A DNA stretch of 64,000 bases from Bilabrum cf. latius (Eukaryota): NCBI GenBank assembly GCA_965178125.1, contig OZ237743.1:620001-684000 (forward strand), read 5' to 3'. This document shows, in pieces, positions 40,579 to 64,000 of this stretch. The stretch's first letter is position 1, and every line of letters starts with the position of its first letter. The translations under genes and the position numbers were made by a program. Below the pieces are notes generated by a model. The model worked only from the letters and a program-made list of their open reading frames with translations, had not been told where the DNA came from and did no database searches.

Positions 40579-40634
40579 TCTCGCAGTCCATATGAAACCC
40601 GTAGTATACTACGGGTTTCATATGGACTGCGAGA
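40579..40634. repeat. Perfect 56-bp palindrome at the host/virus junction
   Basis: TCTCGCAGTCCATATGAAACCCGTAGTA|TACTACGGGTTTCATATGGACTGCGAGA, centre between 40606 and 40607. Confidence 0.97.
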
Positions 40635-41343
40635 GTAGAGTATAGGGGATTTTACTTTTGTTAAAAGTAATTACTTTCCATGAATTGTACAAGAGTCGAA
40701 ATTTCTGACTGGGTTATTCTGTACGTGCAGAGATGGATCGGGAGAGAGTGTTGCTGGGCGCGAACAGATTCTCCTGCGAGTTGCTGTGGATTCCGCAATT
40801 CCTTAATGGATATAATTTACTTCTCTAGGGGTTTCAAACGGGCGAGGGGCGGTCGCGGAGCGCACGTGCGCAGCGCGTGGTTCAGGTCCTCGATACCTCT
40901 CTTTGCACCCCTGATTTATGATCTTTCCGCCATGCCCTCCCTTTCCTGCTTAGCACTAGTATGGTTTGATCTCTTACACATGTGTATAATGTTCAAGGAT
41001 CTAATGCTTTGATCCATTCGCCCCTGAATTGGTCGTGAGGCATCAACCGTGAGGCATTGCTCCGTTCCTATGTAGACCGGAGCACTTTCCTTTGTAGATC
41101 GGAGGTGCCTCACCATTTCCTCGTGCCTCTCCTTGCCAATCAAGAGCAACAATTAAACTTCTACCCAGACCATTATATCATTTACTATACTATCCACCTA
41201 TTGTGTTGCACCCTGCTCTCTAACCTCTTTCCTTAACGAGTGATACCCCTCGCAAATTTCTCACAACTACAAGTGCAATCTGTAACCTTTACTTTTTTGC
41301 ATTTCGTAAAATTGAAACCTTTTTTCTACCATTATAATAGTAT

Positions 41344-42576
41344 ATGAGTTCTACTAACACACTAGTACAAGATATCAAGGCATGGTTAGCCACATAGTAC
41401 CACAATCCCAAGACCTTGGGCAACTACAATCGCGAGTGCAACACCGTTCTCCGCGCCCTACTCCAAAAGATTGGATGCAACCAGGACGCCCCTCTATCCC
41501 AAGAACAAATTGATACCGCCATGAAACAACTCAACAGCACCTATGCTTCGATGCGATGCTACTACGCCCTGCACCACCTAACAGCCTACCTCGGATGCCA
41601 AGGCTGCCAGAGCGAGCGCTTTCACCTGCTATGCAAAACCAAAGGCGAATGGGCGCTCAAGTTTCAATCAGATCGCGAAGAGCAACCCAAAAAGGATCTG
41701 CCTCTCACCCTTTAGCAGGCTCAAGAGCGGTTAGGTGCTGTGGATGCCACTGGGCTCAAGCAGCCCGAGCAGGTGGCACTCTTGTTTCTAACCATCCTCT
41801 ACTACATATCTCCTATCAGACCATCTGCTCTGTGCCAACTTGCCATCAGCACAGATCCAACTTTCCCCAATCGAATCGATCTCGATCGCAAGGTGCTGGT
41901 GGTGGGCAGCGACAAGGGGGTGGTCATTGGCACATCCTAGGAGCGAGATATGCCCATCAACGATCGAGTGGTGGAGATTGCCAGTCTACTATCCGATGAT
42001 ACGCCCTTGTGGAATAGCGGTGCAAAGAATTTCACCAGTCGATTGGTTAAACCTTACAGCCTGAAATGGTTGGAGTGCTACGTTTCACCCCAAAATATCC
42101 GCAAAATCTGGAGCAGTCAAATGGCACGTGGGTTATCACTCGATCAACGCAAAGCACTGTGCAGCGCCATGGGGCATTCAAAGAAAACCCAGAAAACCTA
42201 CTACCAAGAGTACAGAACCAGTGAGGAATAGGAGCATCTAGATGGATGCGATCTACCTGTACTGGGATTGAAATCACCTAAACCTAAACCCAAGATCAAG
42301 ATCAAACCCAAGCAGATCTCACTACCTATAGTGGAAACAAAATCGCCTGAACCTATACTTAAGCCTATTAAACCTAAACATAACAAACAATCCACTCTAC
42401 CTGTGATCGAGATTGAAAGCGATGAAAAAATGAAAACTCAATCTCCTAACAAACCTACTCCACCTGAACCTTCGGTTCTCTTATCTAAACAAGATGGGTT
42501 GTACAACCTACAAATCAATTACAAAGGGTTATCTAGAGATCAATACAAAGCAATCATGGATTTACTTGAAATTTAA
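41344..42576 (+). CDS. Tyrosine recombinase (410 aa)
   Basis: Four track ORFs fused via TAG. SPIRPS (Arg), QNIRKIW (second Arg), AMGHSKKTQKTYY (His/Tyr); Lys/Pro-rich tail; TAA stop. Confidence 0.8.
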
Positions 42577-42938
42577 AAGAGTTCCACATTTTGTGTCTCA
42601 CTTTTTACTTGGTTTAGTACGGATTTAATACAGAAGTTCTGTGTTCCATGTTTTTTTCACAATCTCTCTCAATATTTCATTTTTCACATTTTATGGAATT
42701 TCAAATTTATCATAATATCTGTGGTTGCCAGAAAAAAGAAGGAAACATGGAACATTTCTTTTAATTTCTTTTAAATTATGGAACATAACTTAGAACAAAC
42801 TTAGAACAACTCAAAAAAACTGAGAACACACTTATAATATACTAAATATATTGGATTACTAGAGAGCAATACAAAGCTTAGATATTCTCTATGTACTTAC
42901 ACAGAGAATGCGTGATTTACGATTAAATCCCTACCAAT

Positions 42939-43625
42939 TTACTCGCTCTTGGTACAGATTCTGATTTTGATTTTGATTTTGGGTTTTGCTTTGGATTGCT
43001 GTTCGAGCTGTTGCTGGTGTTGTTGGGATCGGCGATGTCTTACTATGTTAGTACGACAAACAACAGCTCCACATTCGCAAGTGATCTTCTCGCGCTGTCG
43101 CTCGTTAATCTTATCGCGATTGGTTTTGCGGTACTATTTTTTCTGCTCTAGAATTTGATCGCGGTTGGCTTGGCGGTATCGTTTTTTCTATTCGGAAATC
43201 TTGTCGCTATTGAGTTGATTATACCTTTTTTTCTATTCAGCAATCTTATCGCTATTGAGTTGATGGTATTGTTTGGTATATTGTCTGCGCCATTCTTTCT
43301 ATGTATGTGCAATAATACCCGATGGAGTACACTAATTTATGCAAGGATTGTTTTTAATGTAGTATGCTTCACGCAGTAGGAGTTCCTGTTTTGTTGAACA
43401 CGGGTAATTTTCTACCAATTTGATCGCTACTTTATCAAATCCACGTTCTAACAACTTGAATGAGGAGTAGTTGTTCGTCTTGCCGTGTTGCCATTGTTTA
43501 AAGTGATCTTTGTGCCCATTCAATCTCCTGTTTAATGTCTTGACGGTACTGCCATAGTATGGCAATAGTACTGGTGATTCGGTACTGTAAATCATATAAA
43601 TTTTTCCTTTTGAATAATCTGGCAT
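42939..43625 (-). CDS. GIY-YIG endonuclease with basic 14-aa repeats and C-terminal Zn finger (228 aa)
   Basis: GKIYMIY...YYGST...RLNGH, ELLLREAYYI; read-through gives repeats and ITCECG...RHRRSQQH. Confidence 0.88.
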
Positions 43626-43671
43626 TACAAATTCAAAAAGTAAATCATTTTTATCTTTGGACTGACTATAG

Positions 43672-44418
43672 ATGAATCTTAAAGATCAACCAAAACTAAA
43701 AATATTGGAGCTGTTTTGCGGGACGAAGTCAATCAGCAAAGCATTGCATAAACTACTTGGTAATAGAGTGGAAATCACATCACTCGATATCGAATCAAAA
43801 TATAAACCCACCATCTGCACTGATATTATGCAATGGGATTATAAACAAGCATTCCCTGTTGGATGCTTCGACTTTCTTTGGGCATCTCCGCCGTGTACCT
43901 TTTACTCACAAGGAAAGCACATGCTCAGAGATAAAAGCAAACTCGAAGCCCAAAGATAGGAATCAGATAAGATCGTACAACGAGTGTTGCATATAATTGA
44001 TTTTTACAAACCCAAATGCTTTCTAATAGAGAACCCCTAGACTGGTGAGCTTAAAAACCGCGATGTAATTCGTGGCATACCTTTTGTTGATGCCACATAC
44101 TGTATGTACGGCTATGTGTACTCAAAGAAAACTAGATTCTGGGGCAATCAGGCTTTGATCGATCAACTTCATCTCAAAGTTTGCAACAAAAACGACCATT
44201 GCCAACACTCATCCATCACCAACAAAGGTAACCTAAAACACCATTACTCAATCGCATCTGGACCATCCAAAGGATACCGATCTCAAAAAGTTATGTGGAA
44301 CCTGATGCGGTAGATTACTCAAATGCACACTCAATCTACCACTGAGATCCTCTTTTCTATACCCCCCGATTTAACCGAAACCCTAATGAAAACTGTTATC
44401 GATTTAGTGAATTCTTAA
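43672..44418 (+). CDS. DNA cytosine-5 methyltransferase (248 aa)
   Basis: ILELFCGT (motif I), WASPPC (IV), LIENP*TG (VI), YCMYG...KKTRFW; three in-frame TAG. Confidence 0.88.
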
Positions 44419-45429: not shown

Positions 45430-47925
45430 ATGAATACGATCCAATCTGATTTGATGTTAAAACAATTAGTGCCTTGCGAAACTACAGGATTCAAAGTAAA
45501 AACCAAGATGAAATTTCCAATGGAAAAGGTCGAACTAGTTAAAAAGTACCTCAAGTTTATCATGCCCAAAATCATTCACACCTCAACCAAACAATAGGAT
45601 GTTCAAGCACAAACAACTATGGTTGCTAACGCATGTAACTAGTGGCTTTCGGGATCAAAAGATAGTTCGATTCCTCTTACTTTCCATGTTAAAAACAACT
45701 TCGGCAGACTGGTCTCCAAAAAAGTAATAACTCCTGTTCAAATTATTCGTGGCATTCGGCACTATTTGTTTGAAAACCTATACACCGATCTCGATATTGC
45801 CAATGCCCACATTGAGTTTGCTTTCCAATTATACCCTGTTTTAATGGGTGGAGTTGTTCCTAAAGGCATTGAGTACATTGTTAAGAATCGCAAAGCCATC
45901 TTTCAACCATTCATGGATGAACACAAACTAACCAAGGATCAATGCAAAACTTTCGTATTTACTGTTTGTTATAAAGGTTCACTGGAAAAAACCCTTAGAA
46001 AACTTGGATTTGGTGGAGTTGCCGATCTCAAAAAAAATAGCCGATGGGCATACAATAGAATTTAGGAAGCGGCTTCCGAGTTTGAAACCCTTGCCAAGGC
46101 GGTTAAACAGCACATGGGTGATACTTGGAAAATTGTTCATTGTTCTGATAAATCCATTCAACAAAATAGATAGGATGTGAGCAAGTTTAGCATTGTGATG
46201 CAACACATTGAACACAAAATCACACTTGTGATTGCCGATTTCTTAAAACGCAAATATAATCTCGATGTTGCGGATTTCCAATTCGATGGTGTGTTTGTTG
46301 ATAGCATGAATCATAAACTAATCGAATCAATTATTCCTGAAATCGAATAGCACATTACCAAAATTACTGGTTTTAAACTCAAATTAACCGTTAAACCAAT
46401 CGATGGCACTATGGTTCGAGAAATCGTAGAAAAACTACAAACCGAAATCAGTGATGATTCCCCCGAGTTATTAGAAGGATCTGAAGTGGATAGCGATTTA
46501 GAGGCATCCGAAGTGTTTTGGAAAATCTACAAGAATCAAGTCGTAATTACCGAATCATCTATCTATTGTCTCGATAAATCCACACATCTCTACCAGCACT
46601 ACAGCAAATTCAATAAATTTCACCCTCTTTTTAATATGGTTCAAACCCTACGCTTAACTCGTAACAACAAACCTTACTCAGCCAACAACACGAACGCCAA
46701 AAACATTGTTGCCACCATTCTGGGAGATACCTCATTAATTGTCAATGATGTTGAATTTATCGATCAGATCAATCAATCCACCAAAGGATTACTGTTTTTT
46801 ACCGATAAAGTATGGAATTTCGCCACTCAAAAATTCGAGGAGTTTGAAAACCGATTTACACTATGTAACACTGGATACCCTGCTCCTATAGATGCATTTA
46901 AACAACTAAATATTGAAAAGGATAACTACCAATCAATCCAGTACCTCAAGAAAACCATTTTTAACGCCTTCGAAACCCAAGAAGAGGTTGATTACAACTT
47001 ATTTATTTTAGCACGAGCTCTTGCCGGACATGTTGAGGATAAATATTTTTCCTGTTGGGTTGGTGAGCGCGATTGTGGTAAGGGCACATTTATGGATATC
47101 ATCAAGTGTGCCATTGGAAACTATGCAAGGGATTCAGTTCCTCCTATTTGCTCTGATGTTTCCAACAGTGATGTTGCCCAACGAAACAGATTTGCTGTAA
47201 CGAGCAAGATAAATACTGGTAGATTGTGTTTTACCAATGAAGCAGGGATTGCCAAAAAATCCAATTCAACCATTACCTTGGATGGTGAGGTAATTAAGAG
47301 TGTGGTTGCAAGTGGCGGTGATGTTTTCTAGACTCGTAGAATGTTTGAAAACGAACAATCAATGAAAAACAACTGCACCTTTTTCATGCTGTTTAACTCT
47401 TATCCAAAAGCCAATCCATACGATGCCTTTCAAACTTGTTTGCCTGTTATTTTTCCAAAGAAATTCAGCAAGAAAGATCCGGATGTGGTTGGATAGGAGG
47501 ATTGCATCACAGATCTAAGAGAAAAAATTAGATAGCCTGAAATCTATATTGCGTTCTTATGGTGTTTGTTACACGCTTACAAACCCATTCCGGCACGTAA
47601 ATATCCTCGACCAGAATCCTTTTCTAAATCGATAATTGAGGTTGATTCTAAACCCTCTACTCGATTTGAAGTGTTTAAAAAATGCTTTCACAGAGATGAA
47701 TCATCCGTCTTGTCTTGGAACGAAATACGGGAAGTATTTGATCAATACATTAAAATCTCTCCATAGGCACTCCGTAAATTCCTAGAAAAACAAAAGTGCT
47801 CTATTCTTAGAACCTCTTACAAAGGTAAAACCCTTAAAATAGTCAAAGGAGTTGAGTTACGGGATCAATCCGAACCACAAGATGAAGTTAAACAGAGTTC
47901 CGCCCCCCGCTACGGTAATAAATAA
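45430..47925 (+). CDS. TVpol (PolA-like primase-polymerase) fused to D5-like SF3 helicase (831 aa)
   Basis: FGRL...IRHYLF...YTDLDIANAH, KTFVFTVCYKG, QHIE, FQFDGVF, then GERDCGKGT, FTNE, GGDVF*TR; at least nine in-frame TAG; TAA stop. Confidence 0.85.
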
Positions 47926-48072: not shown

Positions 48073-48265
48073 TCCTTCTAATTATAGAAAATCAATTATA
48101 TATAAAACTCTATACGATGACCATATCCACAAATTGCGTATTAGTATATGTATTATTTAGCAAAACGTGGATGTAGCCCTCTTGTGAAGGTGTTATGGGA
48201 CTCTAGCCATTTTCTAGCCAAAAGTTCCATCACTTTATGGGACTCCATTATTCAACCTTCTAAAC
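48073..48265 (+). repeat. Dispersed non-coding repeat, copy 1
   Basis: Core ATACGATG.C.ATATCCACAAATTGCGTA...TAGCAAAACGTGGATG...AAAAGTTCCATC, shared with ~58696-58910 and (inverted) ~63195-63406. Confidence 0.9.
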
Positions 48266-48392: not shown

Positions 48393-49412
48393 ATGGAATT
48401 ATTAAAATGGGAAAATGGAACCTTGAAAGCTACACAACCAAAAGAATATTATGAACGAAATGGATTTTAGGTTAATTTTGAAGGGAAAACCTATCATATA
48501 GCAATGGATAAAGATTATATAAGATGGTTTTTGAAGGACTATAAACCTTATGAAATAATAACAACATTCATAACAGATATGAGTGAAGTATTCAATGGAT
48601 AGGATAAATTTAATGAACCTTTGAATACTTGGGATGTTTCAAATGTTAAGGATATGAGTTTAATGTTTCAAAGTTGTAGAAGCTTTAATCAACCATTGAG
48701 CAATTGGGATGTTTCTAAGGTTGAAAAAATGTCGTCTATGTTCTATTTTTGTTCTAAATTCAATCAATCATTGAACGATTGGAATGTTAGTAATGTTAGG
48801 GATATGAGTGGTATGTTTGGTTCTTGTTCAAGATTCAATCAATCATTAACAAACTGGAATGTTTCTAACGTTGAAAATATGTCCTCTATGTTTAATGGAT
48901 GTTGGAACTTCAATCAACCATTAAATAATTGGGATGTTTCTAAGGTTGAAAAAATGTCGTCTATGTTCTATCATTCTGAATTCAATCAATCATTGAACGA
49001 TTGGAATGTTAGTAATGTTAGGGATATGAGTGGTATGTTTGGTTCTTGTTCAAGATTCAATCAACCATTGGGTAATTGGGATGTTTCTAACGTTGAATAT
49101 ATATCCTCTATGTTTAATGGATGTTAGAACTTCAATCAACCATTGGATAATTGGGATGTTTCCAATGTCTAGAGTAAGTTTTAGATGTTAAAAGATTGTG
49201 AAAGTTTCAATCATTTAGAGAACGGTATTAAGGGTATAAGAATTGATTATTCTACAACATTGATACCGTTGTTAGAAAGACGAAAACATAAAACCATTAA
49301 AAAAACAAAGAAATATAGAGAGGAATTAATTGCTAAAGCGTGGCACCCTTCAAGATTAGATTGGGTATTGGATAACGAGGAGCGAGACGAGATAGAGGAT
49401 AATTTTAATTAA
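48393..49412 (+). CDS. DUF285/BspA-like repeat protein 1 (339 aa)
   Basis: About 25-aa repeats WDVSNVxDMSxMFxxCxxFNQPLxx; C-terminal EELIAKAWHPSR; TAG read-through. Confidence 0.9.
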
Positions 49413-49501
49413 TAGAATTTTAATAATATTAATGATTATTTAATATTATAGTGTGAGTTTAAAAAGGCTTAAATAATATATTTATTATAGGTATATACAG
49501 A

Positions 49502-50299
49502 ATGGAAGTTTTAAAATGGGAAAATGGAACCTTGAAAGCTACAAAACCAAAAGAATATTATTTTAGAAAAGATAATTATATTGTGAAATTTGAAGGTAAA
49601 ACATATTACGTAGCTAAAGATACAGATTTTCTTCTTCACGCATTGTAGTTTTTGAAACCTGAATTATTAGTAACAACATTTATTACGAATATGTTAAACC
49701 TATTTGATAATATGATAATTGAATCACCAATAAATTCATGGGATGTTTCAAATGTTAAAGATATGACCGATATGTTTTATGGGTGTCATTCGTTTAATCA
49801 ACCTTTAAATAACTGGGATGTTTCAAATGTTGAAGATATGGGCGGTATGTTTAATGAGTGTCATTCGTTTAACCAACCATTGAATAATTGGAATGTTTCA
49901 AATGTTGAAGATATGAGTGAAATGTTTAATGATTGCCATTCATTTAACCAACCATTGAATAATTGGAACGTTTCAAATGTTAAAGATATGTGCGGAATGT
50001 TTTATGATTGCCATTCACTAAATCAACCTTTAAATAACTGGGATGTTTCAAATGTTGTAGATATGGAATGTATGTTTTCTAATTGTTTTAGTTTTAATCA
50101 TTTGGAGAATGGAATTAAGGATGAACGAATTGATTATTCCACGACATTAATCCCATCATTAGAAGAGCGGAAAGATGAAACAATTGAACAAACTAAAAAA
50201 ATCAAAGAAGAATTAATTTCTAGAGCGTGGCACCCTTCAAGATTAGATTGGGTATTGGATAACGAGGAGCGAGACGAGATAGAGGATAATTTTAATTAA
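49502..50299 (+). CDS. DUF285/BspA-like repeat protein 2 (265 aa), paralogue of the previous gene
   Basis: Same repeats; near-identical N-terminus and identical last ~75 nt. Confidence 0.9.
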
Positions 50300-51665: not shown

Positions 51666-52823
51666 ATGAGTAAGAGAGGAAAGAAAAAAGATAATGATAT
51701 TAATGAATCAAGTTTTGGATTTAATACGAAGTCTATCACGAACGATTTAATGAAGCCGATAAAGAAACCGAAAGGATTGAATTATGTTAAATATTATAAA
51801 CCTACTAAAGAGGGGCTTATCCAATAGGCTGATTTATTGTATCTCCCTTACGCTACCAAGAACGATTCAAAATATTTATTAGTTGTGATAGATACTAGCG
51901 GATTAGCGTTAGATTTTGAAGAGTTAAAGGATAGAGGGGCGGAGGATGTGATAAAAGCTTTTCAAAAAATCTATAAAAGAAATTATTTAATGAAACCTAA
52001 AATGATACGAACAGATAAAGGGGGAGAATTTGATAATGAATCATTTAAAGAATATCTAAAGAAGAATAAGATAGAGCATATATTTTCAAGAGTGAAGCGT
52101 AAATCGTAGATGGCTTTGGTGGAGAGATTGAATGAGGAAATAGGGAGAGCTATATTTTATTATTTGAATTCATAGGAGATAAGAACGGGGACAACTATCA
52201 CGAACTGGAGACATTTAATACCAAAATTGAGGGAGATATTAAACGAGCGTTATAAAACAAGATAGGAAATGTTGAATAAGAAAAGGGAGAATCTACCATA
52301 TATACCGCCTAGATGTTAGGGTGAAGTATGTGATGTATTAAATGAGGGTGAAATGGTAAGAATAGGATTAGATTATCCTAGAAGTATAGAAGGGATAAAG
52401 GAGACCGGAGCATTTAGGGCGGGAGATATTAAATATAGCGTAAAGCCTTATAAAATTGAAAGAGTAATAATAAAACCAGATAACCCCCCATTATATAAAA
52501 TTGAGGGCATACCCTATACATACTTTAATAGAGATTAGTTGTTATTAGCATCTAAACCATACGAGAATAAAGCACAAGATATATTTATAATTGAAAAATT
52601 GATAAGAAAGAATAAAAATAATACATACAGGGTTAAATGGAAAGATTCATATGTTGATGAGGCTACTAAAAGAAAATATTAGAATGATATAGGTAAAATA
52701 ATAAAGAGAAGAAAGAATCAAGAGGGACAAGATGAATATTTAATTCAATGGAAGATAACAACGGAGCCGGCTAAAAATATATCAAAAACTCTAAAGGATA
52801 ATTTTAATAATAAGACTAAATAA
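51666..52823 (+). CDS. Retroviral-type (rve) DDE integrase with C-terminal chromodomain-like region (385 aa)
   Basis: IQ*ADLLYL, YLLVVID, IRTDKGGEF, ALVERLN; tail FIIEKLI...YRVKWK and EYLIQWK...EPAKNI. Confidence 0.92.
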
Positions 52824-53522: not shown

Positions 53523-55601
53523 TTATTTTAATAATCTTAGTTTTTCAAAGTGTTGATATAAGATTTGTTTTACCTTGTCCTTCACATTATGATTACCTTT
53601 ACCACCGGCTATATTAAAATATTCTTGTTCAATTTGTCCTCCTTTATGCTTGCCACATCCACAACTACCGCCCCTGTTCTATGTTTTTATTTTCTAATCA
53701 ATAATTAAATTAATAGCTTTCATTAACATATTATAAGGGTCTTTATTTCCGAAACCTTGAGCTGGTGGTGAATATGTCCATTGAGGCTTCCCGCTTAATT
53801 CATATCCCGTATCGTTTAGTCTTGATTTTGCTAATGTTCTATCACTTCTGGTTGCTCTTCCTTCTGTATTTGCTCTAGCTACTAAAGACCTAACAGCATC
53901 AGTTGATAAATTAGGTTGTAAGACTCCGGCTTTAAGCCTTCGTATAATATATTTTAAAGTGTTAATTGTTGGGCTGGCGTCTGTTGGATTTATTCCTCTT
54001 GCTTTTAACTATGATAATATTTCATTTTTATTGCCTTTAGCATTTATTGATTGTCCTATTGATTTGGCTATTTCATCATCTGTTTTCTGTGGTTCTTGTG
54101 GTTCTGCTGGTTCTTGTGCTGGTTCTGCTGGTTGTGCTTGTTGTGCTGGTTCTACGGCTTCTCCATCTCTTGGTTCTTCATCTGGGGCTCCCCTCCGTTC
54201 TCTAGCTTGTCTTTCTTTTTCTTCTTGTTGTCTTTGTGCTTCATCTCGTTCTGCCTGTGCTTGTCTTTGTCTGAATTGAACTTCTGTAAGTTGTCTTCCA
54301 AATTCATCTGTAATAGGTTCTCCATCTTCATCTACTGCCATCGCTTCACCTTTTCCTCTGTCTTGACCTGCGGGGGGTGCTTGTGGTTGTGAGCCTGTTT
54401 TTCCTGTTAAATAACTGATACCATCCATAACCGATTGTCCTAAAGAACCAAATGTGCTTTGTTGTTGTTCTGGTGATTGTCCTTGTTCTTGTTCTGGTGA
54501 TTGTCCTTGTGGTTCTGGTGATGCTTGTAAGAATCCACTAGGTGGAACTGGTGCGGGTGATACTTTTGAAAACTAGCCTGATAAATTTCTACTGGCGTTC
54601 TCCCCTTCTTCTTCTTGTCCTGATGATTGTGATGCCTCTTGTTCTTGTGCTTTTTGTTTAAGTTCTGATAATTTCTTCTAAGCACTTTTTATAAAATCAA
54701 CTTTAGACCGTCCTTTTACACCTTTAACATTTGACTCTCTAAGTATTTTTGCTAGTTCGGTTTTCTTTGGTGCTTTTCTACTACTTGAAGGATTGGCGTT
54801 TGCTACTCTTTCAAGTGCTTCAATTTGTTCTTGTAGTTCTGGGCTTAATGCTTCTTGTGGTGTTGGAGGGGGTTTTGGTCTTGGTTCTGGTGGCGGTTGC
54901 GGGTTATCTGGTTCAGGTCTATCAGGTTGCGGGTCATCTCTTTGCTATTGTTGAACGGCTTCAGGAGGATTTAAAACATCCTATAAAGCATTAACAGCGT
55001 CATCAACTTTTGTTAATTGTGAAACATTCTATCCTTGGGGGGTTTTCGTGATTCCAGCTTGTCGTAAAGCGTTTCGTATTTGAACTGCTTTTAATCCTCT
55101 CATATCGCTTGGTAATTGTTCTAATACTGCGTCCCGTTGTGCTTTAGTGGTTGTAAATAATCTCATATTAATATTTTTAATTCCATCAAATACCTTTTTC
55201 TTATCGCTTGCTGGTCCTACTACCTACCTTACATTAATATTATTAATGGTATCTACAACCTATCTTTTTAATTTATCCGGTAAATCTGGATTTCTATTTA
55301 TAAATGATTGTAAATTTTCTATTTGATAAATTGGTAATTCTTTTTTAGCGTTCATAGTCTTAATATTTTTAATAATATTTTCAATTCCTTGTTGTTGTTG
55401 TTGTCTTTCAATTCTAACATCAATAGGAACATAATTAGCACGAAGGAAAGCATCATCTTTTAGGGTTTTTCTTCTGGCTTCTGCTTCATCTTCTTCTTGC
55501 TATATCATTAATCTAACTTGTGGGTCATTTTGTATCCTAAGTTGATTAGACCGTTTCTACATAATACCCTTCAGTAAATCATTAATTGTATTGTTTGACA
55601 T
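53523..55601 (-). CDS. Large low-complexity protein, putative virion core/internal protein (692 aa)
   Basis: ATG 55601 is in frame with track ORF 54009..54428; Pro/Gln/Glu-rich middle; C-terminal RGG, KGG and IAGG motifs; TAA stop. Confidence 0.7.
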
Positions 55602-56941: not shown

Positions 56942-57033
56942 CTTTTTTTGTGAGGAAGGATAGAAGAAGGAACCAACTTAATATTTTAAACCCGTGTGAA
57001 TAAATGGTTTATTTTATTTTATTATTATATATA

Positions 57034-58104
57034 ATGCTATCTTTACAATATACGGAAAATAGCCATATTGTAGCTATTCAAAAATACAAAAAAACACAAT
57101 AGAACCGGTTTATTTATTACGACCCGAACGCTAAAGATATTCAACACGTCAAAGCGGAAGAGATAACAGATGATGTTTTAAAATCTTATTACGGAGAAAG
57201 CCGAGTAAGATATAACGTTGATAAGGACAAGAAAAGGGAACAATTACATAAACTATTACAAGATGAATATATACGGTCAGTTTAGGAATTTGCGATTAAA
57301 GATAATAGTCAATATTTACCTTTTCCTATGCTCTTTCCATAGGGGCGTGAATATGTGCGATTATTTGGTAAGAGTGGAAGCGGGAAAAGTCATTTAGCTT
57401 TACATTATATAAGGATGTATAGAGGATTAAAATATAAAAATATGTATGTTATATCACCAATTCAAGACCCTAAATATAAAAGAGAAGGCGCGACCTTCAT
57501 TGATATAGATGATTTGGTTAAAGAGAATGAAAACACTTTATATAAGGAAAAAATGGCTTATTATAAAAAAATGAAATTAGAATTTAAATATAAGAAATCT
57601 TCTTTGATGAAATCTAAACCTTTAGATGTTGTTATTGAAGCTGAAAGAAAGATAGAGGATTTGAAACCTGAGAAAGATTTAATAGAAAAAGGTTTTAAAT
57701 TAAATGTTGAGTTTTTTAAAAAATTGACCGCTGAACCTAATTTATTTATTCTGGATGATTACGAAGGCTTTAAAAAAAGGAACCAGAAAGCAAAGGCTTA
57801 TTTTTTATTGGAAATCCTAGCAACTACAGGAAGGCACACAGCAAGTAGCGTTTTAGACATCACCCACAAAATAAGCGACGGTATGAAGACACGAACCATT
57901 ATGAACGAAATTACAACCCATATCATTTATAAAACAATTACAGCTAAAAGTTTAAAATATATTTTAGAAACAGTCTTAAGTTTTGACGCTCCTACTAGAA
58001 AACGAATTAAAAAAACCCTTCATTCTCTCCCTCTCTTTGGTTATGTTGCTATTAATGTTGATAATAATTATGTAGTTAGCACAAAAAAAATATTTCTCTA
58101 TTGA
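57034..58104 (+). CDS. FtsK-HerA/A32-type genome packaging ATPase (356 aa)
   Basis: GKSGSGKS, FILDDYE, TTGRH, ITH; TGA stop. Confidence 0.92.
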
Positions 58105-58112: not shown

Positions 58113-58688
58113 ATGAACATAAACGACTTAAATAGACTAGTCCAAACACCGTTATCTCCTTTAGAAATTCAAAAATTAGGTGTAGCACATTTGAATTACA
58201 AACCTAGAATAGTTATTTACGATGATATTATTAAATAGACCTCATCTATTGAACATATTTTTGATGGTAATGACGGCGTAATTATTTATTATCCTAATAA
58301 AAAGACGGGACTAAATAGCACATACGGTCATTATTGCGCTCTTACTTAGGACGAAAATAATAAAACTATTTATTTTTTTGATAGCTATGGAGAAAAACCC
58401 GACCAATAGAAACCATTTATTAATAGAAACCAATTGTATCAAGGAGAAGGAGAAGAGAACACACTAGTTAAATATTTATTGACGTAGAAATTACACGGCT
58501 GGAAAATTGACTATAATAATAAACCTATTTAGAGTTATGCTAATTAGAGTGCTACTTGTGGAAGATGGGCATTATTAAGAACTGTTTTCTCATTCTTAAC
58601 TAATGATTAGTTTGTAAATGAAATGTTTAGAATATCCAAAATTATGGCTCTTAGTCCTGATTAGTTAGTGGCGTTGCTTCTACATTGA
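58113..58688 (+). CDS. Adenain-like cysteine maturation protease (191 aa); absent from the ORF track
   Basis: GHYCAL (His), YFFDSYG (Asp), YNNKPI*S (Gln as TAG 58530-58532), ATCGRW (Cys). Confidence 0.93.
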
Positions 58689-58695: not shown

Positions 58696-58910
58696 GCCCT
58701 TCTAATAAAAGGGCTAGAATAAAATAATAAAATATGATTATCTCTAAAATAAAATCCATACGATGGCTATATCCACAAATTGCGTATATATTATAGTGTT
58801 TTCTAGCAAAACGTGGATGTAGGGCCTCTTGTGAAGGTGAAATGAAGATATAAGCCCTTTTATTTAGAAAAGTTCCATCGTTTTAGAAGGGCTATTTTTC
58901 ATCCATCTAA
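58696..58910 (+). repeat. Dispersed non-coding repeat, copy 2
   Basis: See copy 1; contains the 9-bp inverted pair GCCCTTCTA (58696) and TAGAAGGGC (58884). Confidence 0.9.
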
Positions 58911-59024
58911 ATTCAATCAAACTTTTAAATATATTGGTAAAAGTGAAGGGTAAAAATCAAGGTGAAATATTAGATAAGGTTTATTAATAAATATTTATTT
59001 GTATAGCTTTAATATATAAATAAA

Positions 59025-59978
59025 ATGAGTTATAGCGATGAATTTGTAAGATTGAATTTAGTTAGTTCATCTGTCCCCCACAATTAGACGAGATAGGCGG
59101 TAGTGAATGAAACCCGTGAAGGCTTAATATTAAAACAAAGTGAAAATTATTTAACGGCTGTTGAAGAGATGGATTTAAATAAATTTATGCTACCGGTGTT
59201 TAAACCTGAATATTAGGATGACAGCGGTAAAACCTATTTAAAATTTACTCTTGAGAATAAAACATCAGGAGCCAGAGCAGGCGATTATATAGTTCTAGGT
59301 AAAAAAGCTAAATTTTATTATTCATATTAGGATATTGTAAATGAATTTAATGAAGAGTTAAGCCGAATTTGTGATTTGGTAAGCCTTCCAAGTGGTGATA
59401 AACCAGTCTTTAAATTTGAAAATAATAAATGGAGTTTATCAACAACTGAAGATTTTAGAGATAATTATTATTTATTTGTTAATTTTGAAGCTTTTGCTTT
59501 ATTTGATAAATTTGAATATGAAGGAATAACAACCACACCGAGTGATTTATTTGCTAAACTTTCATATAATAATTCCCCTGCTAGTGGTGATTATGTTTTT
59601 ATGGCTAGATAGACGAATTTAAATTCTTGGTGCCCTGTTAAATCTATTATCGTAGAAAGTGATATTCCAGTGAATAAAGAATTGGTGACCACAAAATCAT
59701 CTACTGGTGGCTCTATAGCCGTCAATAAATCCCCTATATTAACCAGCTACCCGTATAATCCTAATGACAGCTCACCAATAGAAAATATATTATATGTTTC
59801 TAATCCTTACCGCTGGTATTCAATGATGAAGGATAGAAGCTTTAAGAGCGTGTCAATGGCGTTCTACTGGGTTGATAAACAAAATGAAAAGTATCCCGTA
59901 ATGAATTTTAACGGGGGTGAAGCTCACATTAAACAAGTATTTAAAAAACAAACCGATAATTTAAGTTTAGATTTTTAA
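59025..59978 (+). CDS. Minor capsid (penton) protein (317 aa)
   Basis: Beta-rich ORF lying between protease and MCP; WCPVKSIIVESDIPV, PYRWYSM, FYWVDK resemble virophage penton segments. Confidence 0.8.
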
Positions 59979-60049
59979 ATAAATTATAGAAGATTATAAA
60001 ATATGTTTAGATATTAAAAAATTTATATCTATAGTGTATATATAAAAAA

Positions 60050-61939
60050 ATGGCTCAACAAATGGTTCAGAATTTACCAGTAAGCATTAAGGCTCCTAAA
60101 AGCCTTCAAATGATAACCCCTGAAGATGCTAGTTTAGGAACAGAACTAGGTGTTCAAAAATATACCCGCCGAGAAATTAGACCATCATCTAATCAATCTA
60201 ATTCTCTTCTTCCCCTTTCTTTCCCCGTTAATCCTACTAGTAAAACCGTATCAAGGTTTATTCGTCTTCGTCATCGTATGACAGTTAGGCTACAACTAGA
60301 GCAAGCAGTACCAGCTCAAACTGCGGGAGGTGATGCTATTACCGCTCAATCTTATCTTAAATCTAGGTTTGGAACTAATTCATTACCTACCTTTAAAATG
60401 CTTCAAGGTGGTGTTTTAACAATTAATGGATAGCCTTTTACAGTAAAAGTTTATGAATGGGCTGAACCTACCGAAGTTATGAACAGTGAAGAAACCTTAT
60501 CCACAATCTCACCCGTTGGACGCCCTGACACTGTTGGTGATTATCGTGAAGTAAGTGATACCCTTAAAAATCCTTTAGCTTGGGGTTAGGATGTTGGATA
60601 TAGTGCCGGTGATAGCTTTAGTTATCGTGGAGCATATGGGAATGCTTTTACGACTGTAAATGCTGATTTCGTTGCGGGTAATAGAGACCAAATTGATTGG
60701 ACTATTGATTTTCAAGAAGCTATACCACTAAAAGGAGCAGATGTTGATGTGAATGCTAAATATTTCACCGGTGTGAGAAGCCTTCAGGTTGATTTAGATT
60801 ATCACGTAAATGCCATTCAAAGACTGTGTAAGGCTAGTTTTACAAAAGATAACGGAGATATTAACAAAATAACGGGTTAGTCAATTATAGGAGAAACAAA
60901 TACGACCCTTCTTGTTGATGAAGTTGAATTTTAGAGTGGATACGCCCCCCCGACTCGTTGTATGTATAATATGCCTACAATTAAATTTTAGTCTTAGGCG
61001 CCTGTCCCTGTACCTAAATCCGCAACTGAAAATTCTTTAACTTCTTTTGATTATCAATTATCCCGTGAGAATGGTATCCCTAGTGCTATTATGGTATGTG
61101 CCCGCCTTGTTGGTTGTGATGATAACCCTAACTGGGCTAATAGAACTTTACCAATTAGAAGAATAGGTTTCTCACTCAATGGAAGCGCTGAGGAATTAGG
61201 GGCTGTAGATAATCCACACGAATTATATAGAATTAGTAGAAAGAACGGATATGCTCTTCCTCCTTCATCCTTTTATGGTTCATCAATTGATGGAAGTGAT
61301 GGAAACCGCGGTACTGGTTGCTATATGATTTTAAAACCTTCAGATGTTGCTACACTTGCTGGTGTTCAATCTAATGTAAATACTGGATTTAATCTTAAAG
61401 TTAATCTTCAGTGCTTCAACCCTTATAATAAATATGCGGATGGTGCGTATGAGGATAAATACGAGATAAAAGTATGGATGTTTTATGATAATGTTCTTGT
61501 GAATGATAACGGTGTCTATACTGAGGCTGGCGCCCTTATTGAGCCTTCTAAAGTGCTTTCTGAACTTGCTAAACGTGGTGATGCTGAAAGTGGTTCTAAA
61601 GGTTTCTAGCCTGTATTTGAGGATTTAGATAATTATGCTAATGTTATGGGTGGAAAAGGTCGTTTCTGGTCTAAGATTGGACGAGCCTTTAAACACGGAT
61701 GGAATCAGGTTAAAGATTGGGCAAAAAGTGATTAGGCTAAAAACCTAGCGAAAACCATTAGGAATATAGGACCACTCAAAAGTCTAACAGGAGACAATAG
61801 CGCTATTGGCAAAGCGGCGGCACATTATGGATATGGAAATAGTGGAGGAGAATTGAATAAGCTTGGTGGAAAACTTACGATGCGTGGTGGCTAGGCTATG
61901 CGTGGGGAAGATCTCGAGGCCCTTTTAAGCACATCTTAA
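60050..61939 (+). CDS. Virophage-type double jelly-roll major capsid protein (629 aa)
   Basis: Length, position after the penton, IPSAIMVCAR, ELYRISRKNG, and a C-terminal amphipathic/GG-rich tail; track ORFs 60050 and 61091 fuse via TAG. Confidence 0.88.
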
Positions 61940-61986
61940 ACGTTTAAAATGACTTAAATATATATTAACTAACTAATATATATCAA

Positions 61987-62277
61987 ATGGAAAAGTTAAA
62001 TAAAATTATTGAGAATCTACCGCCTACACACGATGTCTATATCCAGACAGAAATTGATGGAGTTTTGACCGTAATTTTTACAAACAGTGATTAGGTAAAA
62101 GAAATCACCAATCAATTAAAAAAAGACAGTAGAGAGAAGCTATTATATCTCAAATATTCAACCTATAAATGTATTATATAGACGAGGAATAAGTATAGAG
62201 ATGATGACATTGTACTTCATTATTTGGCTGTTTGTCTATTAGAAAAGAAACCCATTCAATTATATAAGGCAAGATAA
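61987..62277 (+). CDS. Hypothetical protein (96 aa)
   Basis: ATG..TAA with two TAG; preceded by the conserved promoter motif. Confidence 0.65.
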
Positions 62278-62328
62278 TCATTTTATTATTTATTTATACA
62301 TATTAAATAAATATATGACCTGTGAATG

Positions 62329-62441
62329 ATACTTTCCAAAGTAGGTTCATACTTTTCGAAGTTGGTTCACACTTTTCAAAGTAGGTTCATACTTTCCGAA
62401 GTTGGTTCATACTTTTCAAAGTAGGTTCATACTTTCCAAAG
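62329..62441. repeat. Non-coding 20-bp tandem repeat (about 5.6 units)
   Basis: Unit GTWGGTTCAYACTTTYCRAA, with alternating variants giving a 40-bp super-period. Confidence 0.95.
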
Positions 62442-62592
62442 AACTATTTAACCGGTCTAATTAATTAATATTTTAATAATATTAATTATTATAATCACTT
62501 ATATCTATAGTGTCTATTTTTAAGCCCCTAATTTATAATATAACGCGTTTAAAATGACTTAAAGATTATATTATATAGATATTATATAGAGA

Positions 62593-63144
62593 ATGTGTAA
62601 AAAGTGTATTGAACAAATATAGGAACATACCGGTAATATAAAGTGGATGGACATTTAGAAGAAATTAATTCATATTGGCTCAACCGTTATTCAAGGTGAT
62701 AAATTGGGTAATTGTATTTGTGGGCACGAGATACGAACCGAGCACGAAATAGAGCATACCCCTAGTGGATATGTTTTTAAAGTGGGTTCTAGTTGTATAA
62801 AGTAGATGATAAAGGATAAAGAAAATCAAATTCGTAAAAAATGTTTATATTAGTGGTGTGGAATATGTAAAAAAGATGTCGCAAGAGACCGATATAATAA
62901 GCACTGTGAAGGAATAAGACATATTGAGTTAGAAAAGAAATAGAAAAAGTTAGAGGAAAAAAAGAGGAATGAAAAAAGATGTGATGTGTGTCTTTGTAAA
63001 ATGCTTAGAGGTGATTGGAGGACAACCTGTAAGTCTTGTTATACGATTACAAAATATGGAAAAAAGGCGTGTAAAAAATGCGGAGTGTCTAGAATTAAAG
63101 ATATGAAATATTCAATTTGTTATAAATGTCATATTGGTAAATAA
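62593..63144 (+). CDS. Multi-Zn-finger protein (183 aa); absent from the ORF track
   Basis: CICGHEI...VGSSCI, CGIC...KHCEGIRH, four further CxxC pairs; several TAG. Confidence 0.8.
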
Positions 63145-63194
63145 TAATTAGATATTAATGATAAAATTAATATTTAACATATTGATGATGGGAG

Positions 63195-63406
63195 TTAGAA
63201 GGGGCTATATTACAACCTTCTAAAGTGATGGAACTTTTGGGCTAGAAATACGATATCAATCAAATCATCTTCATAAAACTAATCCATCCACGTTTTGCTA
63301 AATAATACATATACTAATACGCAATTTGTGGATATAGCCATCGTATGGATTTTATTATAGAGATAACCATATATATTTTAATATTCTAGCCCTTTTATTA
63401 GATGGT
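63195..63406 (-). repeat. Dispersed non-coding repeat, copy 3 (inverted)
   Basis: Reverse complement of copies 1 and 2. Confidence 0.9.
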
Positions 63407-63466
63407 CAAGGTGTTCAACTATTAATAAAGATATCATATTTAATATTAGTATAAATATTAAATTAT

Positions 63467-64000
63467 TTAGAAATCTTTTAATGCTTCTTGAAGTTGCTCT
63501 CTAAAGGCTTCTTCATCATCATCTTCATCATCTGGTTTCTCAACATTTCTATTATTATCACGTTTTTGTTTCTTCTTGTTCCTCTTCTTAGTCTTTTTCT
63601 TGGGTCTTATTGGTTCTTCTTCTTCTTCTGGTTCCTCTACTTCATCGGGTATAAATTGACCGTATGACAAATTAATATATTTGATGGGTTTGTCCTTCTT
63701 TTTAATTGTCATTATGGGGTCTTTACTCTCAAAATCTCCTGTATAATAAATCGGGGGCTCACTGGAAAACATATAAATGTATGGAACAAATGGATTTTTG
63801 GCGCTGTCGGTCTTCATATCAGGGGTTAGATACAAACCATTCAATTCGTCTTCATCCACCAGTTCAAATTTATCTTCTACGGTATTATTAAAAAATATCC
63901 CTTTAAAAGTTTTAAAGAAGAATTGATTAATATATTTCTTGGCTTTCTTTATGGCTCCCTCTTCTAAAAGTTCCATTAATTCGCTTGGTTCATAACTCTA
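63467..64000 (-). CDS. Hypothetical viral protein, 5' end possibly beyond the window
   Basis: Frame open (via TAG) to the window edge; acidic/basic C-terminus; TAA stop. Confidence 0.65.

What the first reader, a model, noticed from the sequence alone, without database searches (positions are those of the whole stretch)
40579..64000. An endogenous virophage written in its host's non-standard genetic code (UAG=Gln)
Seen: almost every viral gene has in-frame TAGs but no premature TAA/TGA or frameshift in the frames I read. TAG sits at positions where Gln is expected: the oxyanion-hole Gln of the adenain protease (58530), the QADL motif of the rve integrase (51825) and ENP-Q-TG of the methyltransferase (44038). 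Known: virophages carry ATPase, protease, penton and MCP and depend on host ribosomes and a helper giant virus. Inference: this is an intact, code-adapted virus, not a decayed relic. It would be restricted to UAG-recoding hosts, implies a code-compatible helper virus, and is largely invisible to standard ORF callers (the protease, core protein and Zn-finger gene are missing from the track). I cannot establish from here whether it has been described.
Basis: partly seen in the sequence, partly recalled or inferred. Interest (0 to 1): 0.95.

Follow-up and report, generated by a model that had tools for sequence, protein, structure and literature searches.

The report
Integrated virophage using TAG as glutamine
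A mavirus-like virophage sits beside GC-rich eukaryotic host DNA, and its genes only make sense if the stop codon TAG is read as glutamine, as in the host, so it shows a virus of giant viruses adapted to a changed genetic code.

Summary
From about 42.9 kb to the window end, a low-GC block (26-39% GC per gene; host about 60%) carries 21 ORFs. One more ORF lies at 41344-42576. Together the 22 ORFs hold 90 in-frame TAGs in 6,426 codons, and all end in TAA (19) or TGA (3). Only TAG read-through opens the frames: the longest ORF goes from 326 to 831 aa, with no gain if TAA or TGA is read through.

It is a mavirus-type virophage. Penton, capsid protein and protease match mavirus. ATPase, protease, penton and capsid protein lie in the mavirus order, with an rve integrase.

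TAG means Gln. At the 38 TAG sites that could be aligned to standard-code virophages, Gln is enriched 4.6-fold, and 0 of 10,000 random column sets reach this. The protease site at 58530 is Gln in 39 of 39 relatives.

Host genes also carry TAG inside Pfam domains, and one ends in TAA just after its domain.

Not shown: the junction in reads, the right end, expression, a helper virus. A code-matched endogenous virus is already reported for Streblomastix (PMC10120064). I found no recoded virophage in print. Verdict: real, a new variant of a known kind.

The parts
40579..40634 (.). Perfect 56-bp palindrome at the point where GC starts to fall. Its relation to the element is unknown.
   Evidence: Two 28-nt arms, 100% complementary, no spacer. 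Sequence read. GC profile.
41344..42576 (+). 410-aa ORF with 4 in-frame TAGs and intermediate GC (0.47). It has no family assignment, and whether it belongs to the virophage is uncertain.
   Evidence: No Pfam, PHROGs or PDB match. No relative in the 45 virophage loci. The single-sequence fold was unusable, pLDDT 35.8.
42939..43625 (-). 228-aa protein with 5 TAGs. By motif it looks like a GIY-YIG nuclease (recalled, not confirmed by Pfam). It is the first gene with clear relatives in virophage contigs.
   Evidence: tblastn hits in 12 of 45 virophage loci. 25 ORF hits by iterative HMM. No Pfam family above noise.
43672..44418 (+). C5 cytosine DNA methyltransferase, 3 TAGs
   Evidence: Pfam PF00145, E 9.1e-9, 35.6 bits against a cut-off of 22. 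PHROGs DNA methyltransferase families.
45430..47925 (+). Primase/helicase-type replication protein, 831 aa, 9 TAGs
   Evidence: Pfam DUF5906, 28.5 bits against a cut-off of 27.6. PHROGs phrog_1156 DNA primase, E 5e-13.
48393..50299 (+). Two tandem paralogous DUF285 repeat proteins (48393-49412 and 49502-50299), 5 and 1 TAGs
   Evidence: Pfam PF03382, E 2.6e-80 and 8.4e-55. Repeat families D1, D3, D5 and D7.
51666..52823 (+). rve (retroviral-type) integrase with a weak chromodomain-like tail, 7 TAGs
   Evidence: Pfam rve, E 8.9e-12, 45.6 bits against a cut-off of 32.6. Chromo 21.7 bits, below its cut-off of 25.1. The D, D and E positions align to PFV and HTLV-2 integrases.
53523..55601 (-).
   Evidence: No Pfam match. 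No relative in the loci.
57004..58104 (+). Packaging ATPase with a Walker A motif, 3 TAGs
   Evidence: 23 ORF hits in virophage loci, next to the protease gene. PHROGs terminase-like family phrog_2666, E 1.1e-6.
58113..58688 (+). Adenain-like (clan CE) cysteine protease, 191 aa, 8 TAGs. One TAG is at 58530, the conserved Gln.
   Evidence: Mavirus PRO, 41% identity, E 4.5e-31. H73, D90, Q140 and C149 are conserved across 26 rows. AlphaFold model pLDDT 87.5. Best fold match is adenovirus 2 proteinase 1nln, E 6.6e-6, followed by Ulp1/SENP.
59025..59978 (+). Penton (minor capsid) protein, 5 TAGs
   Evidence: Mavirus penton 6g41, E 6.5e-24. Pfam Sputnik V18/19, 29.2 bits against a cut-off of 27. 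125 relatives at E<=1e-3 among 1.84 billion representatives.
60050..61939 (+). Major capsid protein, 629 aa, 9 TAGs
   Evidence: Mavirus MCP 6g45, E 3.7e-8 over residues 92-620. 29 hits in virophage loci. It groups with the mavirus-like loci L002-L004, support 100/99, on a long branch. Pfam MCP_V20_C scores only 17.2 bits, below its cut-off of 27.
62593..63144 (+).
   Evidence: 5 ORF hits in the loci, query included; 3 distinct loci rows in the alignment. No Pfam family.
48079..48263 (+). Copy A of an intergenic repeat of about 190 nt with a conserved hairpin core. Copy B is at 58685-58890 (+) and copy C at 63195-63418 (-). Each lies just downstream of a gene's 3' end.
   Evidence: Consensus hairpin of 18 pairs, -16 kcal/mol, one compensated pair. 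No Rfam family.
63467..64000 (-). Last ORF in the window. Its reading frame stays open to base 64000, so the window does not show where the element ends.
   Evidence: ORF marked '5open'.

Best explanation
From about 42.9 kb to at least base 64000, the window holds the genome of a mavirus-type virophage. A virophage is a small dsDNA virus that replicates in the factory of a giant virus. This one is joined on its left to GC-rich eukaryotic host DNA, most likely as an integrated provirus placed there by its own rve integrase.

Its genes are written in a code where TAG specifies glutamine, while TAA and TGA terminate (the pattern of NCBI table 15). Host genes in the same window use TAG the same way.

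Inferred working: host ribosomes translate the virophage mRNAs, so a host tRNA-Gln that reads UAG inserts Gln at 90 positions. One of these is the conserved Gln of the protease active site. The element carries no tRNA of its own.

In the element TAG is three times commoner than CAG. This fits an AT-rich genome that has evolved for a long time under this code, rather than a recent arrival or a decaying copy.

Shown: gene identities, gene order, TAG as sense, Gln as its meaning, and the host's shared use of TAG. Inferred: integration (from the assembly only), present-day activity, dependence on a giant virus, and the need for that virus to tolerate TAG=Gln.
For: **TAG is read through**
- 90 in-frame TAGs and no other in-frame stop in 22 ORFs. 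All 22 end in TAA or TGA.
- Only TAG read-through opens the frames. The longest ORF goes from 326 to 831 aa. Coverage by ORFs of 150 aa or more goes from 0.26 to 0.76. Reading TAA or TGA as sense gives no gain in the longest ORF.

**Virophage identity**
- Penton against mavirus 6g41, E 6.5e-24.
- MCP against mavirus 6g45, E 3.7e-8.
- Protease against mavirus PRO, 41% identity, E 4.5e-31, with an adenain-like fold.
- ATPase, protease, penton and MCP lie on one strand in the same order as in the mavirus-like loci L002, L003 and L004. L003 and L004 also carry rve.
- rve integrase.
- The MCP groups with L002-L004, support 100/99.

**TAG means Gln**
- 38 of the 90 TAG codons fall in alignable columns against standard-code ORFs from 45 IMG/VR virophage loci.
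- Gln is the commonest aligned residue, 106 of 594.
- Mean Gln fraction is 0.176 against a background of 0.038, and 0 of 10,000 random column sets reach this.
- The likelihood ranking puts Q first: 88.9, against E 72.5 and K 27.7.
- Protease residue 140 is Q in 39 of 39 relatives, and residue 99 is Q in 24 of 40.

**Host shares the code**
- TAGs lie inside single Pfam domain matches: kinase residues 121, 155 and 176 within 81-263, and amidase residue 455 within 158-680.
- The host's longest ORF goes from 667 to 1869 aa with TAG as sense.
- The SpoU-domain ORF ends in TAA 10 residues after its domain.

**Codon usage and tRNA**
- Element: TAG 90, CAG 30, CAA 213. Host: TAG 42, CAG 191, CAA 79.
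- There is no tRNA in the element.

**Independent holders**
- Six sequencing runs under two study labels hold 82-90% of the sampled words of 54001-64000.
Against: **Limits of the Gln test**
- In 33 of the 38 testable TAG columns, Gln is not the commonest residue.
- Several columns favour unlike residues: penton 24, P 11 of 16; penton 196, F 12 of 20; MCP 277, V 11 of 23; protease 79, R 22 of 39; ATPase 113, K 11 of 18; MCP 316, N 11 of 23.
- Glu is only 16 log units behind Gln. The aligned pairs are not independent, and two protease columns carry much of the signal.
- 52 of the 90 TAGs could not be tested.
- In the DUF285 repeats, the conserved FNQ Gln is always CAA, and the TAGs sit at variable sites.
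- The 91%-identical full-length relative P0126 has Q at 5 of the 8 protease TAG sites. It is unknown whether its gene caller itself read TAG as Q.

**Integration not verified**
- The right end, terminal repeats and target-site duplication lie outside the window.
- A perfect palindrome sits at the GC transition.

**Other gaps**
- No protein-primed DNA polymerase in the window.
- The MCP is very divergent: at most 23% identity and a branch length of 2.11. It scores below the Pfam cut-off.
- No tRNA-Gln(CUA) in the window.
Confidence: 0.85

Rival explanations
1. The element is a free (episomal or co-purified) virophage genome that the assembler joined to a host contig. It would not be endogenous.
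For: - The junction could not be checked with reads.
- A perfect 56-bp palindrome lies exactly at the GC transition.
- The stretch 40.6-42.6 kb has intermediate GC and holds one unassigned ORF.
- The right junction is outside the window.
Against: - The window is one contiguous sequence with 40 kb of host DNA.
- The element encodes an rve integrase whose catalytic positions align.
- The flanks beyond the palindrome arms are not inverted copies of each other.
- Host and element share the rare TAG reading, so they belong to one biological system either way.
Confidence: 0.12
2. TAG is a sense codon here but encodes another residue, most plausibly Glu or Lys, rather than Gln.
For: - Glu ranks second and Lys third in the likelihood test (E 72.5, K 27.7, Q 88.9).
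- Both are enriched at TAG columns, 1.8-fold and 1.6-fold.
- At protease residue 166, relatives have E in 18 and D in 13 of 37.
Against: - Gln is enriched 4.6-fold.
- It is invariant (39 of 39) at protease residue 140, which sits four columns... it sits nine residues before the catalytic Cys in an adenain-like fold.
- It is the majority (24 of 40) at protease residue 99.
- E and K enrichment is what Gln sites normally show. CAA/CAG-coded Gln sites in the same alignments match Gln in only 10% of pairs.
Confidence: 0.06
3. The element is a decayed relic whose genes were broken by nonsense mutations.
For: Under the standard code most genes are interrupted.
Against: - All 90 interruptions are TAG and none is TAA or TGA, although off-frame TAA and TGA outnumber TAG in every gene.
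- No frameshifts are needed to read the genes.
- ORF lengths and ends match homologues.
- Protease and integrase catalytic positions are kept.
- Coding fraction is 0.86.
- Host genes show the same TAG use.
Confidence: 0.02

Closest known systems
Mavirus (Cafeteriavirus-dependent mavirus), and the endogenous mavirus-like elements of Cafeteria (the latter recalled, not read here)
   Same: - Homologous penton, MCP and protease.
- The same ATPase-protease-penton-MCP order as the mavirus-like locus L002.
- An rve integrase.
- A low-GC element in a GC-rich, intron-poor host. Cafeteria is about 70% GC (PMC6972860, abstract and passages read).
   Different: - This element is written with TAG=Gln. Cafeteria's nuclear genes were annotated without any nuclear code change; only its mitochondrion uses UGA=Trp (PMC6972860).
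- The MCP shares at most 23% identity with the mavirus-like loci.
- The replication gene in the window is a primase/helicase type.
- No protein-primed polymerase was seen in the window.
Endogenous viral elements of Streblomastix strix (Metamonada group of polinton-like virus capsid genes; Bellas et al. 2023, PMC10120064)
   Same: An endogenous dsDNA virus reported to use its host's non-standard code. The authors take this as a sign of long association (passages read).
   Different: - That host reads both TAA and TAG as Gln. Here TAA is a stop.
- Those elements fall in a polinton-like capsid group seeded by Trichomonas, not among virophages with mavirus-type penton and protease.
- The paper's supplementary tables could not be opened, so I cannot exclude that they list other recoded hosts.
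Nuclear codes with UAG=Gln but UAA=stop (Iotanema spirale; Panek et al. 2017, PMC5304391)
   Same: TAG is sense and most likely Gln, while TAA and TGA terminate, in both host and element (abstract read).
   Different: The host lineage here is not identified. Nothing links it to Iotanema. The window's host DNA is about 60% GC.
Giant-virus metagenome genomes that annotate better under alternative codes (PMC13524828, 2026)
   Same: The paper points to giant viruses in recoded hosts. One Imitervirales genome rose from 13% to 93% coding density under code 6 (passages read).
   Different: Those are giant viruses from metagenomes with no host attached, and the main text does not mention virophages (0 occurrences). 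Here a virophage lies next to host DNA that shows the same code.

Membership tests
Virophage, mavirus type | Double jelly-roll major capsid protein homologous to virophage MCPs | tested here: met
   phmmer against mavirus MCP 6g45, E 3.7e-8 over residues 92-620. 29 ORF hits in virophage loci. Pfam MCP_V20_C scores only 17.2 bits against a cut-off of 27. The fold itself was not modelled.
Virophage, mavirus type | Penton (minor capsid) protein | tested here: met
   Mavirus penton 6g41, E 6.5e-24. Pfam V18-19, 29.2 bits against a cut-off of 27.
Virophage, mavirus type | Adenain-like cysteine protease with His, Asp, Gln and Cys in that order | tested here: met
   Mavirus PRO, E 4.5e-31. H73, D90, Q140 and C149 conserved. 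Top fold match is adenovirus proteinase. The catalytic roles of these residues are recalled from clan CE knowledge and were not measured.
Virophage, mavirus type | FtsK/HerA-type packaging ATPase next to the protease, in the order ATPase-protease-penton-MCP | tested here: met
   23 ATPase ORF hits in the loci. Same order and strand as L002, L003 and L004. Pfam gives only sub-threshold P-loop hits.
Virophage, mavirus type | rve-family integrase | tested here: met
   Pfam rve, 45.6 bits against a cut-off of 32.6. The D, D and E positions align to PFV and HTLV-2 integrases.
Virophage, mavirus type | Protein-primed family B DNA polymerase | tested here: not met
   None of the 22 ORFs matched a polymerase family. 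The element runs off the window at base 64000, so absence from the whole element is not shown.
Virophage, mavirus type | Terminal inverted repeats and a target-site duplication | not testable with these tools
   The right end is outside the window. No convincing inverted copy of the left end lies within it; the best pair is 35 nt at 71%.
Virophage, mavirus type | Replication depends on a giant virus | not testable with these tools
An 18-nt motif lies upstream of four ORFs (4 matches against 0.06 expected) and may be a promoter, but this was not tested.
Integrated (endogenous) provirus | Both junctions with host DNA supported by reads | tested here: inconclusive
The right junction is outside the window.
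Genetic code with TAG=Gln and TAA/TGA as stops (NCBI table 15 pattern) | TAG in frame inside conserved domains of host and element genes | tested here: met
   Element. Host: kinase TAGs at 121, 155 and 176 within Pkinase 81-263, and amidase TAG at 455 within Amidase 158-680.
Genetic code with TAG=Gln and TAA/TGA as stops (NCBI table 15 pattern) | TAG columns align to Gln in standard-code homologues | tested here: met
   Gln fraction 0.176 against 0.038, with 0 of 10,000 random sets reaching it. Q ranks first in likelihood. This was tested for the element only. The host's TAG meaning is inferred.
Genetic code with TAG=Gln and TAA/TGA as stops (NCBI table 15 pattern) | TAA and TGA still terminate | tested here: met
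   - The protease ends in TGA at the same alignment column as mavirus PRO.
- Penton and MCP end in TAA within about 10-20 residues of the mavirus lengths.
- The host SpoU-domain ORF ends in TAA 10 residues after its domain.
Genetic code with TAG=Gln and TAA/TGA as stops (NCBI table 15 pattern) | A tRNA-Gln with anticodon CUA and an altered release factor in the host | not testable with these tools
   The only tRNA in the window is tRNA-Val(GAC). No whole genome is held for this window.

The most novel reading that the evidence does not exclude
This is a functional member of a virophage lineage that has evolved for a long time inside a UAG=Gln-only eukaryote. If so, a complete host, giant virus and virophage system exists under a changed genetic code, with the code acting as a host-range barrier. 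The virophage could replicate only in such hosts, and its helper giant virus could not use TAG as a stop codon. The host may also represent an undescribed lineage with the rare code in which UAG and UAA have different meanings.
Probability: 0.45. Interest if true: 0.82.

Novelty: new variant of a known kind. Interest (0 to 1): 0.7.

Why it matters
Virophages and giant viruses depend on host ribosomes, so a host's codon reassignment should filter which viruses can infect it. According to a 2026 catalogue, all giant-virus isolates so far come from standard-code hosts (PMC13524828, passages read).

A virophage written throughout in TAG=Gln, lying next to host genes with the same reading, is concrete evidence that this kind of viral system has crossed a code change or co-evolved with one. 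It also names a host in which a recoded giant virus can be looked for.

There is a practical lesson as well. Standard gene callers break such elements into fragments, so surveys of endogenous virophages will under-count them in recoded hosts.

In six literature searches I found no paper describing a virophage with reassigned stop codons. The nearest statements are these:
- Endogenous elements in Streblomastix that use the host's code (PMC10120064).
- A virophage tRNA with an ochre anticodon, read by its authors as a hint of host recoding (PMC6905037, passage read).

Tried and rejected
**Searches for close relatives**
- Word-index search with the MCP found nothing.
- The penton as a single query in viral contigs found nothing.
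- Penton alignments A1 and A2 were too variable to be used as queries.
- The 3-row penton alignment found nothing in metagenome contigs and one distant locus, L001, in viral contigs.
- P0001 in metagenome contigs and in viral contigs, and P0004 in viral contigs, found nothing.

**Reads and expression**
- The look-up of sequencing runs listed no RNA holder. This says nothing about expression.

**Host lineage**
- No whole genome is held for this window.
- A word-index search with the SpoU-domain region found nothing.
- The host is therefore left unnamed.

**Ideas that did not hold up**
- Tyrosine recombinase for ORF 41344-42576. This came from recalled motifs and was not supported by Pfam, PHROGs or PDB. 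The single-sequence fold had pLDDT 35.8 and was not searched.
- A TCTATAG promoter-like motif. It gave 11 matches against 4.9 expected, and 2 of 100 shuffles reached 11, so it is not convincing.
- An RNA family or tRNA in the element: none found.
- The methyltransferase 'ENP-Q-TG' claim: no solved homologue was available to check it.
- DUF285 paralogue comparison: TAGs fall at variable sites, so it is uninformative on the meaning of TAG.
- Copies of the element in the host part of the window: none by tblastn or blastn.

Full report
**Observation**

The window has two parts. Bases 1 to about 40,500 are 54-72% GC. From about 42.6 kb onward, 200-nt windows read 22-45% GC. A transition zone of 43-54% GC lies at 40.6-42.3 kb.

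Reading TAG as sense, the low-GC part and the transition zone hold 22 ORFs of 95 aa or more.
- 20 of the 22 carry in-frame TAGs, 90 in 6,426 codons.
- 19 end in TAA, 3 in TGA and none in TAG.
- Off-frame TAA and TGA triplets are abundant in every gene.

A code control shows the effect is specific to TAG.
- In 42600-64000, coverage by ORFs of 150 aa or more rises from 0.26 to 0.76 with TAG as sense.
- The longest ORF rises from 326 to 831 aa.
- With TAA or TGA as sense instead, the longest ORF stays at 326 aa.

Under the standard code the protease and the Cys-rich gene give no ORF of 80 aa or more, and the 692-aa gene is reduced to a 139-aa piece.

**What it is**

The morphogenesis genes are those of a mavirus-type virophage.
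- The penton matches the solved mavirus penton (6g41, E 6.5e-24). It passes Pfam's Sputnik V18/19 cut-off (29.2 against 27 bits).
- The MCP matches the solved mavirus MCP over residues 92-620 (6g45, E 3.7e-8). Its Pfam MCP_V20_C score is below the cut-off (17.2 against 27).
- The protease is 41% identical to mavirus PRO (E 4.5e-31).
- An exhaustive HMMER search with the penton found 125 relatives at E<=1e-3 among 1.84 billion representatives. The closest are 42% identical (P0001) and 71% identical over a 95-aa fragment (P0002).

A protease alignment retrieved 44 virophage loci from IMG/VR. With L001 that makes 45 loci.
- Iterative HMM searches of their stop-to-stop ORFs found MCP (29 hits), penton (28), ATPase (23), protease (46) and the 42939-43625 gene (25).
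- ATPase, protease, penton and MCP lie on one strand in the same order as in L002 (a close mavirus relative), L003 and L004. L003 and L004 also carry an rve integrase.
- In an MCP tree of 23 distinct rows, the window's MCP joins L002-L004 with support 100/99. Its branch length is 2.11 and its best identity is 23%. The loci were chosen by protease similarity, so the sample is biased.

Other genes in the element:
- rve integrase (Pfam 45.6 bits). Its D, D and E positions align to PFV and HTLV-2 integrases.
- C5 DNA methyltransferase.
- Primase/helicase-type protein (DUF5906; phrog_1156).
- Two tandem DUF285 repeat proteins.

The protease model is confident (pLDDT 87.5). Its best solved-structure matches are adenovirus proteinase (1nln, E 6.6e-6), then Ulp1 and SENP proteases.

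The coding fraction of 42939-63976 is 0.86. No polymerase gene was found. The last ORF's frame is still open at base 64000, so the element's right end is not in view.

**What TAG encodes**

I put X at every TAG and aligned the element's proteins to ORFs of the 45 loci translated by the standard code. I then read the residues opposite X.
- Of the 90 TAGs, 41 fell in match columns of nine gene alignments, and 38 of those had data.
- Gln is the commonest aligned residue, 106 of 594. K follows with 67 and E with 62.
- Mean Gln fraction per column is 0.176, against 0.038 in all other columns. For the element's own CAA/CAG Gln columns it is 0.105.
- None of 10,000 random column sets matched per gene reaches 0.176.
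- I scored the TAG-aligned residues against the substitution profile of each query amino acid taken from the same alignments. Q ranks first (88.9). E scores 72.5, K 27.7 and R 27.4. With columns weighted equally the scores are Q 7.13, E 3.79 and K 3.53.

The clearest sites are in the protease. Residue 140 (58530) is Q in 39 of 39 distinct relatives, and residue 99 is Q in 24 of 40. Residue 140 lies between the conserved Asp (D90) and Cys (C149) in the order His, Asp, Gln, Cys. From my own knowledge of clan CE proteases, this is where the oxyanion-hole Gln sits.

Integrase residue 54 aligns to the Q two residues before the first catalytic Asp of HTLV-2 integrase.

Results that do not point to Gln:
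- In 33 of 38 columns another residue is commonest. These include P (penton 24, 11 of 16), F (penton 196, 12 of 20), V (MCP 277, 11 of 23), R (protease 79, 22 of 39), K (ATPase 113, 11 of 18) and N (MCP 316, 11 of 23).
- In the DUF285 repeats, the conserved FNQ Gln is always CAA.

Most TAGs therefore sit at variable positions, as most Gln codons do. The two conserved-Gln columns carry much of the signal.

Three closer relatives give further hints.
- P0126 (91% identical, full length) has Q, K, Q, Q, Q, N, E, Q at the eight protease TAG sites. I cannot tell whether its gene caller itself read TAG as Q.
- P0127 (73% identical) ends exactly one residue before the TAG at residue 99. That is what a standard-code caller would produce if that copy also has TAG there.
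- The methyltransferase claim could not be checked.

**The host reads TAG too**

- With TAG as sense, the longest host ORF rises from 667 to 1869 aa. It stays at 667 with TAA as sense and reaches 968 with TGA as sense. Long frames arise easily in GC-rich DNA, so the next point matters more.
- TAGs lie inside single Pfam domain matches. Kinase ORF 37050-37883 has TAGs at residues 121, 155 and 176 within Pkinase 81-263 (E 2.3e-24). The amidase ORF has a TAG at residue 455 within Amidase 158-680 (E 2.5e-67).
- Eight host ORFs hold 42 TAG, 191 CAG and 79 CAA.
- The SpoU-domain ORF ends in TAA 10 residues after the end of its domain. In the element, TAA and TGA end genes at the same places as in homologues.

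The code is therefore TAG as sense with TAA and TGA as stops. This is the uncommon pattern reported for Iotanema spirale (PMC5304391, abstract read). That TAG means Gln in the host as well is inferred, not tested.

**How it most likely works**

- Shown: the gene set, the gene order, the TAG reading and the host's shared reading.
- Inferred: the virophage entered the chromosome through its rve integrase.
- Inferred: its mRNAs are translated by host ribosomes, where a host tRNA reading UAG inserts Gln. The element has no tRNA of its own and no Rfam match.
- Codon usage: in the element, TAG (90) is three times commoner than CAG (30) and makes up 27% of Gln codons. In the sampled host ORFs it makes up 13%.
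- I read this as an AT-rich genome near equilibrium under this code, meaning long residence in such hosts. It is not what random decay would give.
- If the element is active, it would need a giant virus that is translated by the same apparatus and does not use TAG to terminate. That is inference only.

**Integration**

The element is contiguous with 40 kb of host DNA in the window. Six runs under two study labels hold 82-90% of the sampled words of 54001-64000. The sequence is therefore not unique to one data set, but this says nothing about the junction.

A perfect 56-bp palindrome lies at 40579-40634, where GC begins to fall. The 410-aa ORF at 41344-42576 (GC 0.47, 4 TAGs) has no relatives in the virophage loci and no family. 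The first gene that is clearly virophage-like starts at 42939. I put integration at about 0.8.

**Comparison with what is known**

- Endogenous mavirus-like virophages in a GC-rich flagellate are known. I read PMC6972860 in passages. The work on the endogenous elements themselves is recalled, not read.
- A code-matched endogenous virus has been reported: elements in Streblomastix strix use that host's TAA/TAG=Gln table (PMC10120064, passages read).
- A virophage tRNA with an ochre anticodon was read as a hint of host recoding (PMC6905037, passage read).
- Some giant-virus metagenome genomes annotate better under alternative codes, and all isolates come from standard-code hosts (PMC13524828, passages read).
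- Six searches found no description of a virophage written in a reassigned code. One search was a search for ciliate elements.

**Verdict**

It is a new variant of a known kind: a mavirus-type endogenous virophage, new in being written in a TAG=Gln-only code shared with its host. The open points are integration, completeness, activity, the helper virus and the host's identity.

Noticed in passing
window 1-40500 (for example 37050-37883, 28179-30560, 31086-36695): The host uses TAG as a sense codon while TAA still terminates. This is the rare pattern in which UAG and UAA have different meanings. The host is about 60% GC, with uninterrupted frames (TAG read as sense) of up to 1869 codons. I could not identify its lineage.
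   Followed up: partly
window 48079-48263 (+), 58685-58890 (+), 63195-63418 (-): Three copies of an intergenic element of about 190 nt with a conserved hairpin core (18 pairs, one compensated). Each lies just downstream of a gene's 3' end, in that gene's orientation. It could be a transcript 3'-end signal or a small mobile repeat. No Rfam match.
   Followed up: partly
window 48347-48364, 49456-49473, 61941-61958, 62546-62563: An 18-nt motif lies 29-46 nt upstream of four ATGs (4 matches against 0.06 expected by shuffling). It is a candidate promoter element for a subset of genes.
   Followed up: partly
window 40579-40634: A perfect 56-bp palindrome (28-nt arms, no spacer) sits exactly where GC content begins to fall between host and element. 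Its meaning is unknown. It could mark an element end or an assembly hazard.
   Followed up: no
window 62309-62461: Six tandem copies of a 20-nt unit lie in the intergenic region before the Cys-rich gene.
   Followed up: no
window 48393-49412 and 49502-50299: Two DUF285 repeat genes are recent tandem duplicates. Their flanks and 3' parts are 83-89% identical. Each has internal 75-nt repeats.
   Followed up: no
protein P0127 (public ENA-derived protein, 121 aa): This 73%-identical protease relative starts with about 24 residues that carry a precomputed prenyltransferase Pfam hit. It stops one residue before the position of the window's TAG at protease residue 99. This suggests a sister copy with TAG at the same codon, called under the standard code. 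Its DNA was not seen.
   Followed up: no
window 12669-12740: A tRNA-Val(GAC) gene is the only tRNA in the window.
   Followed up: no
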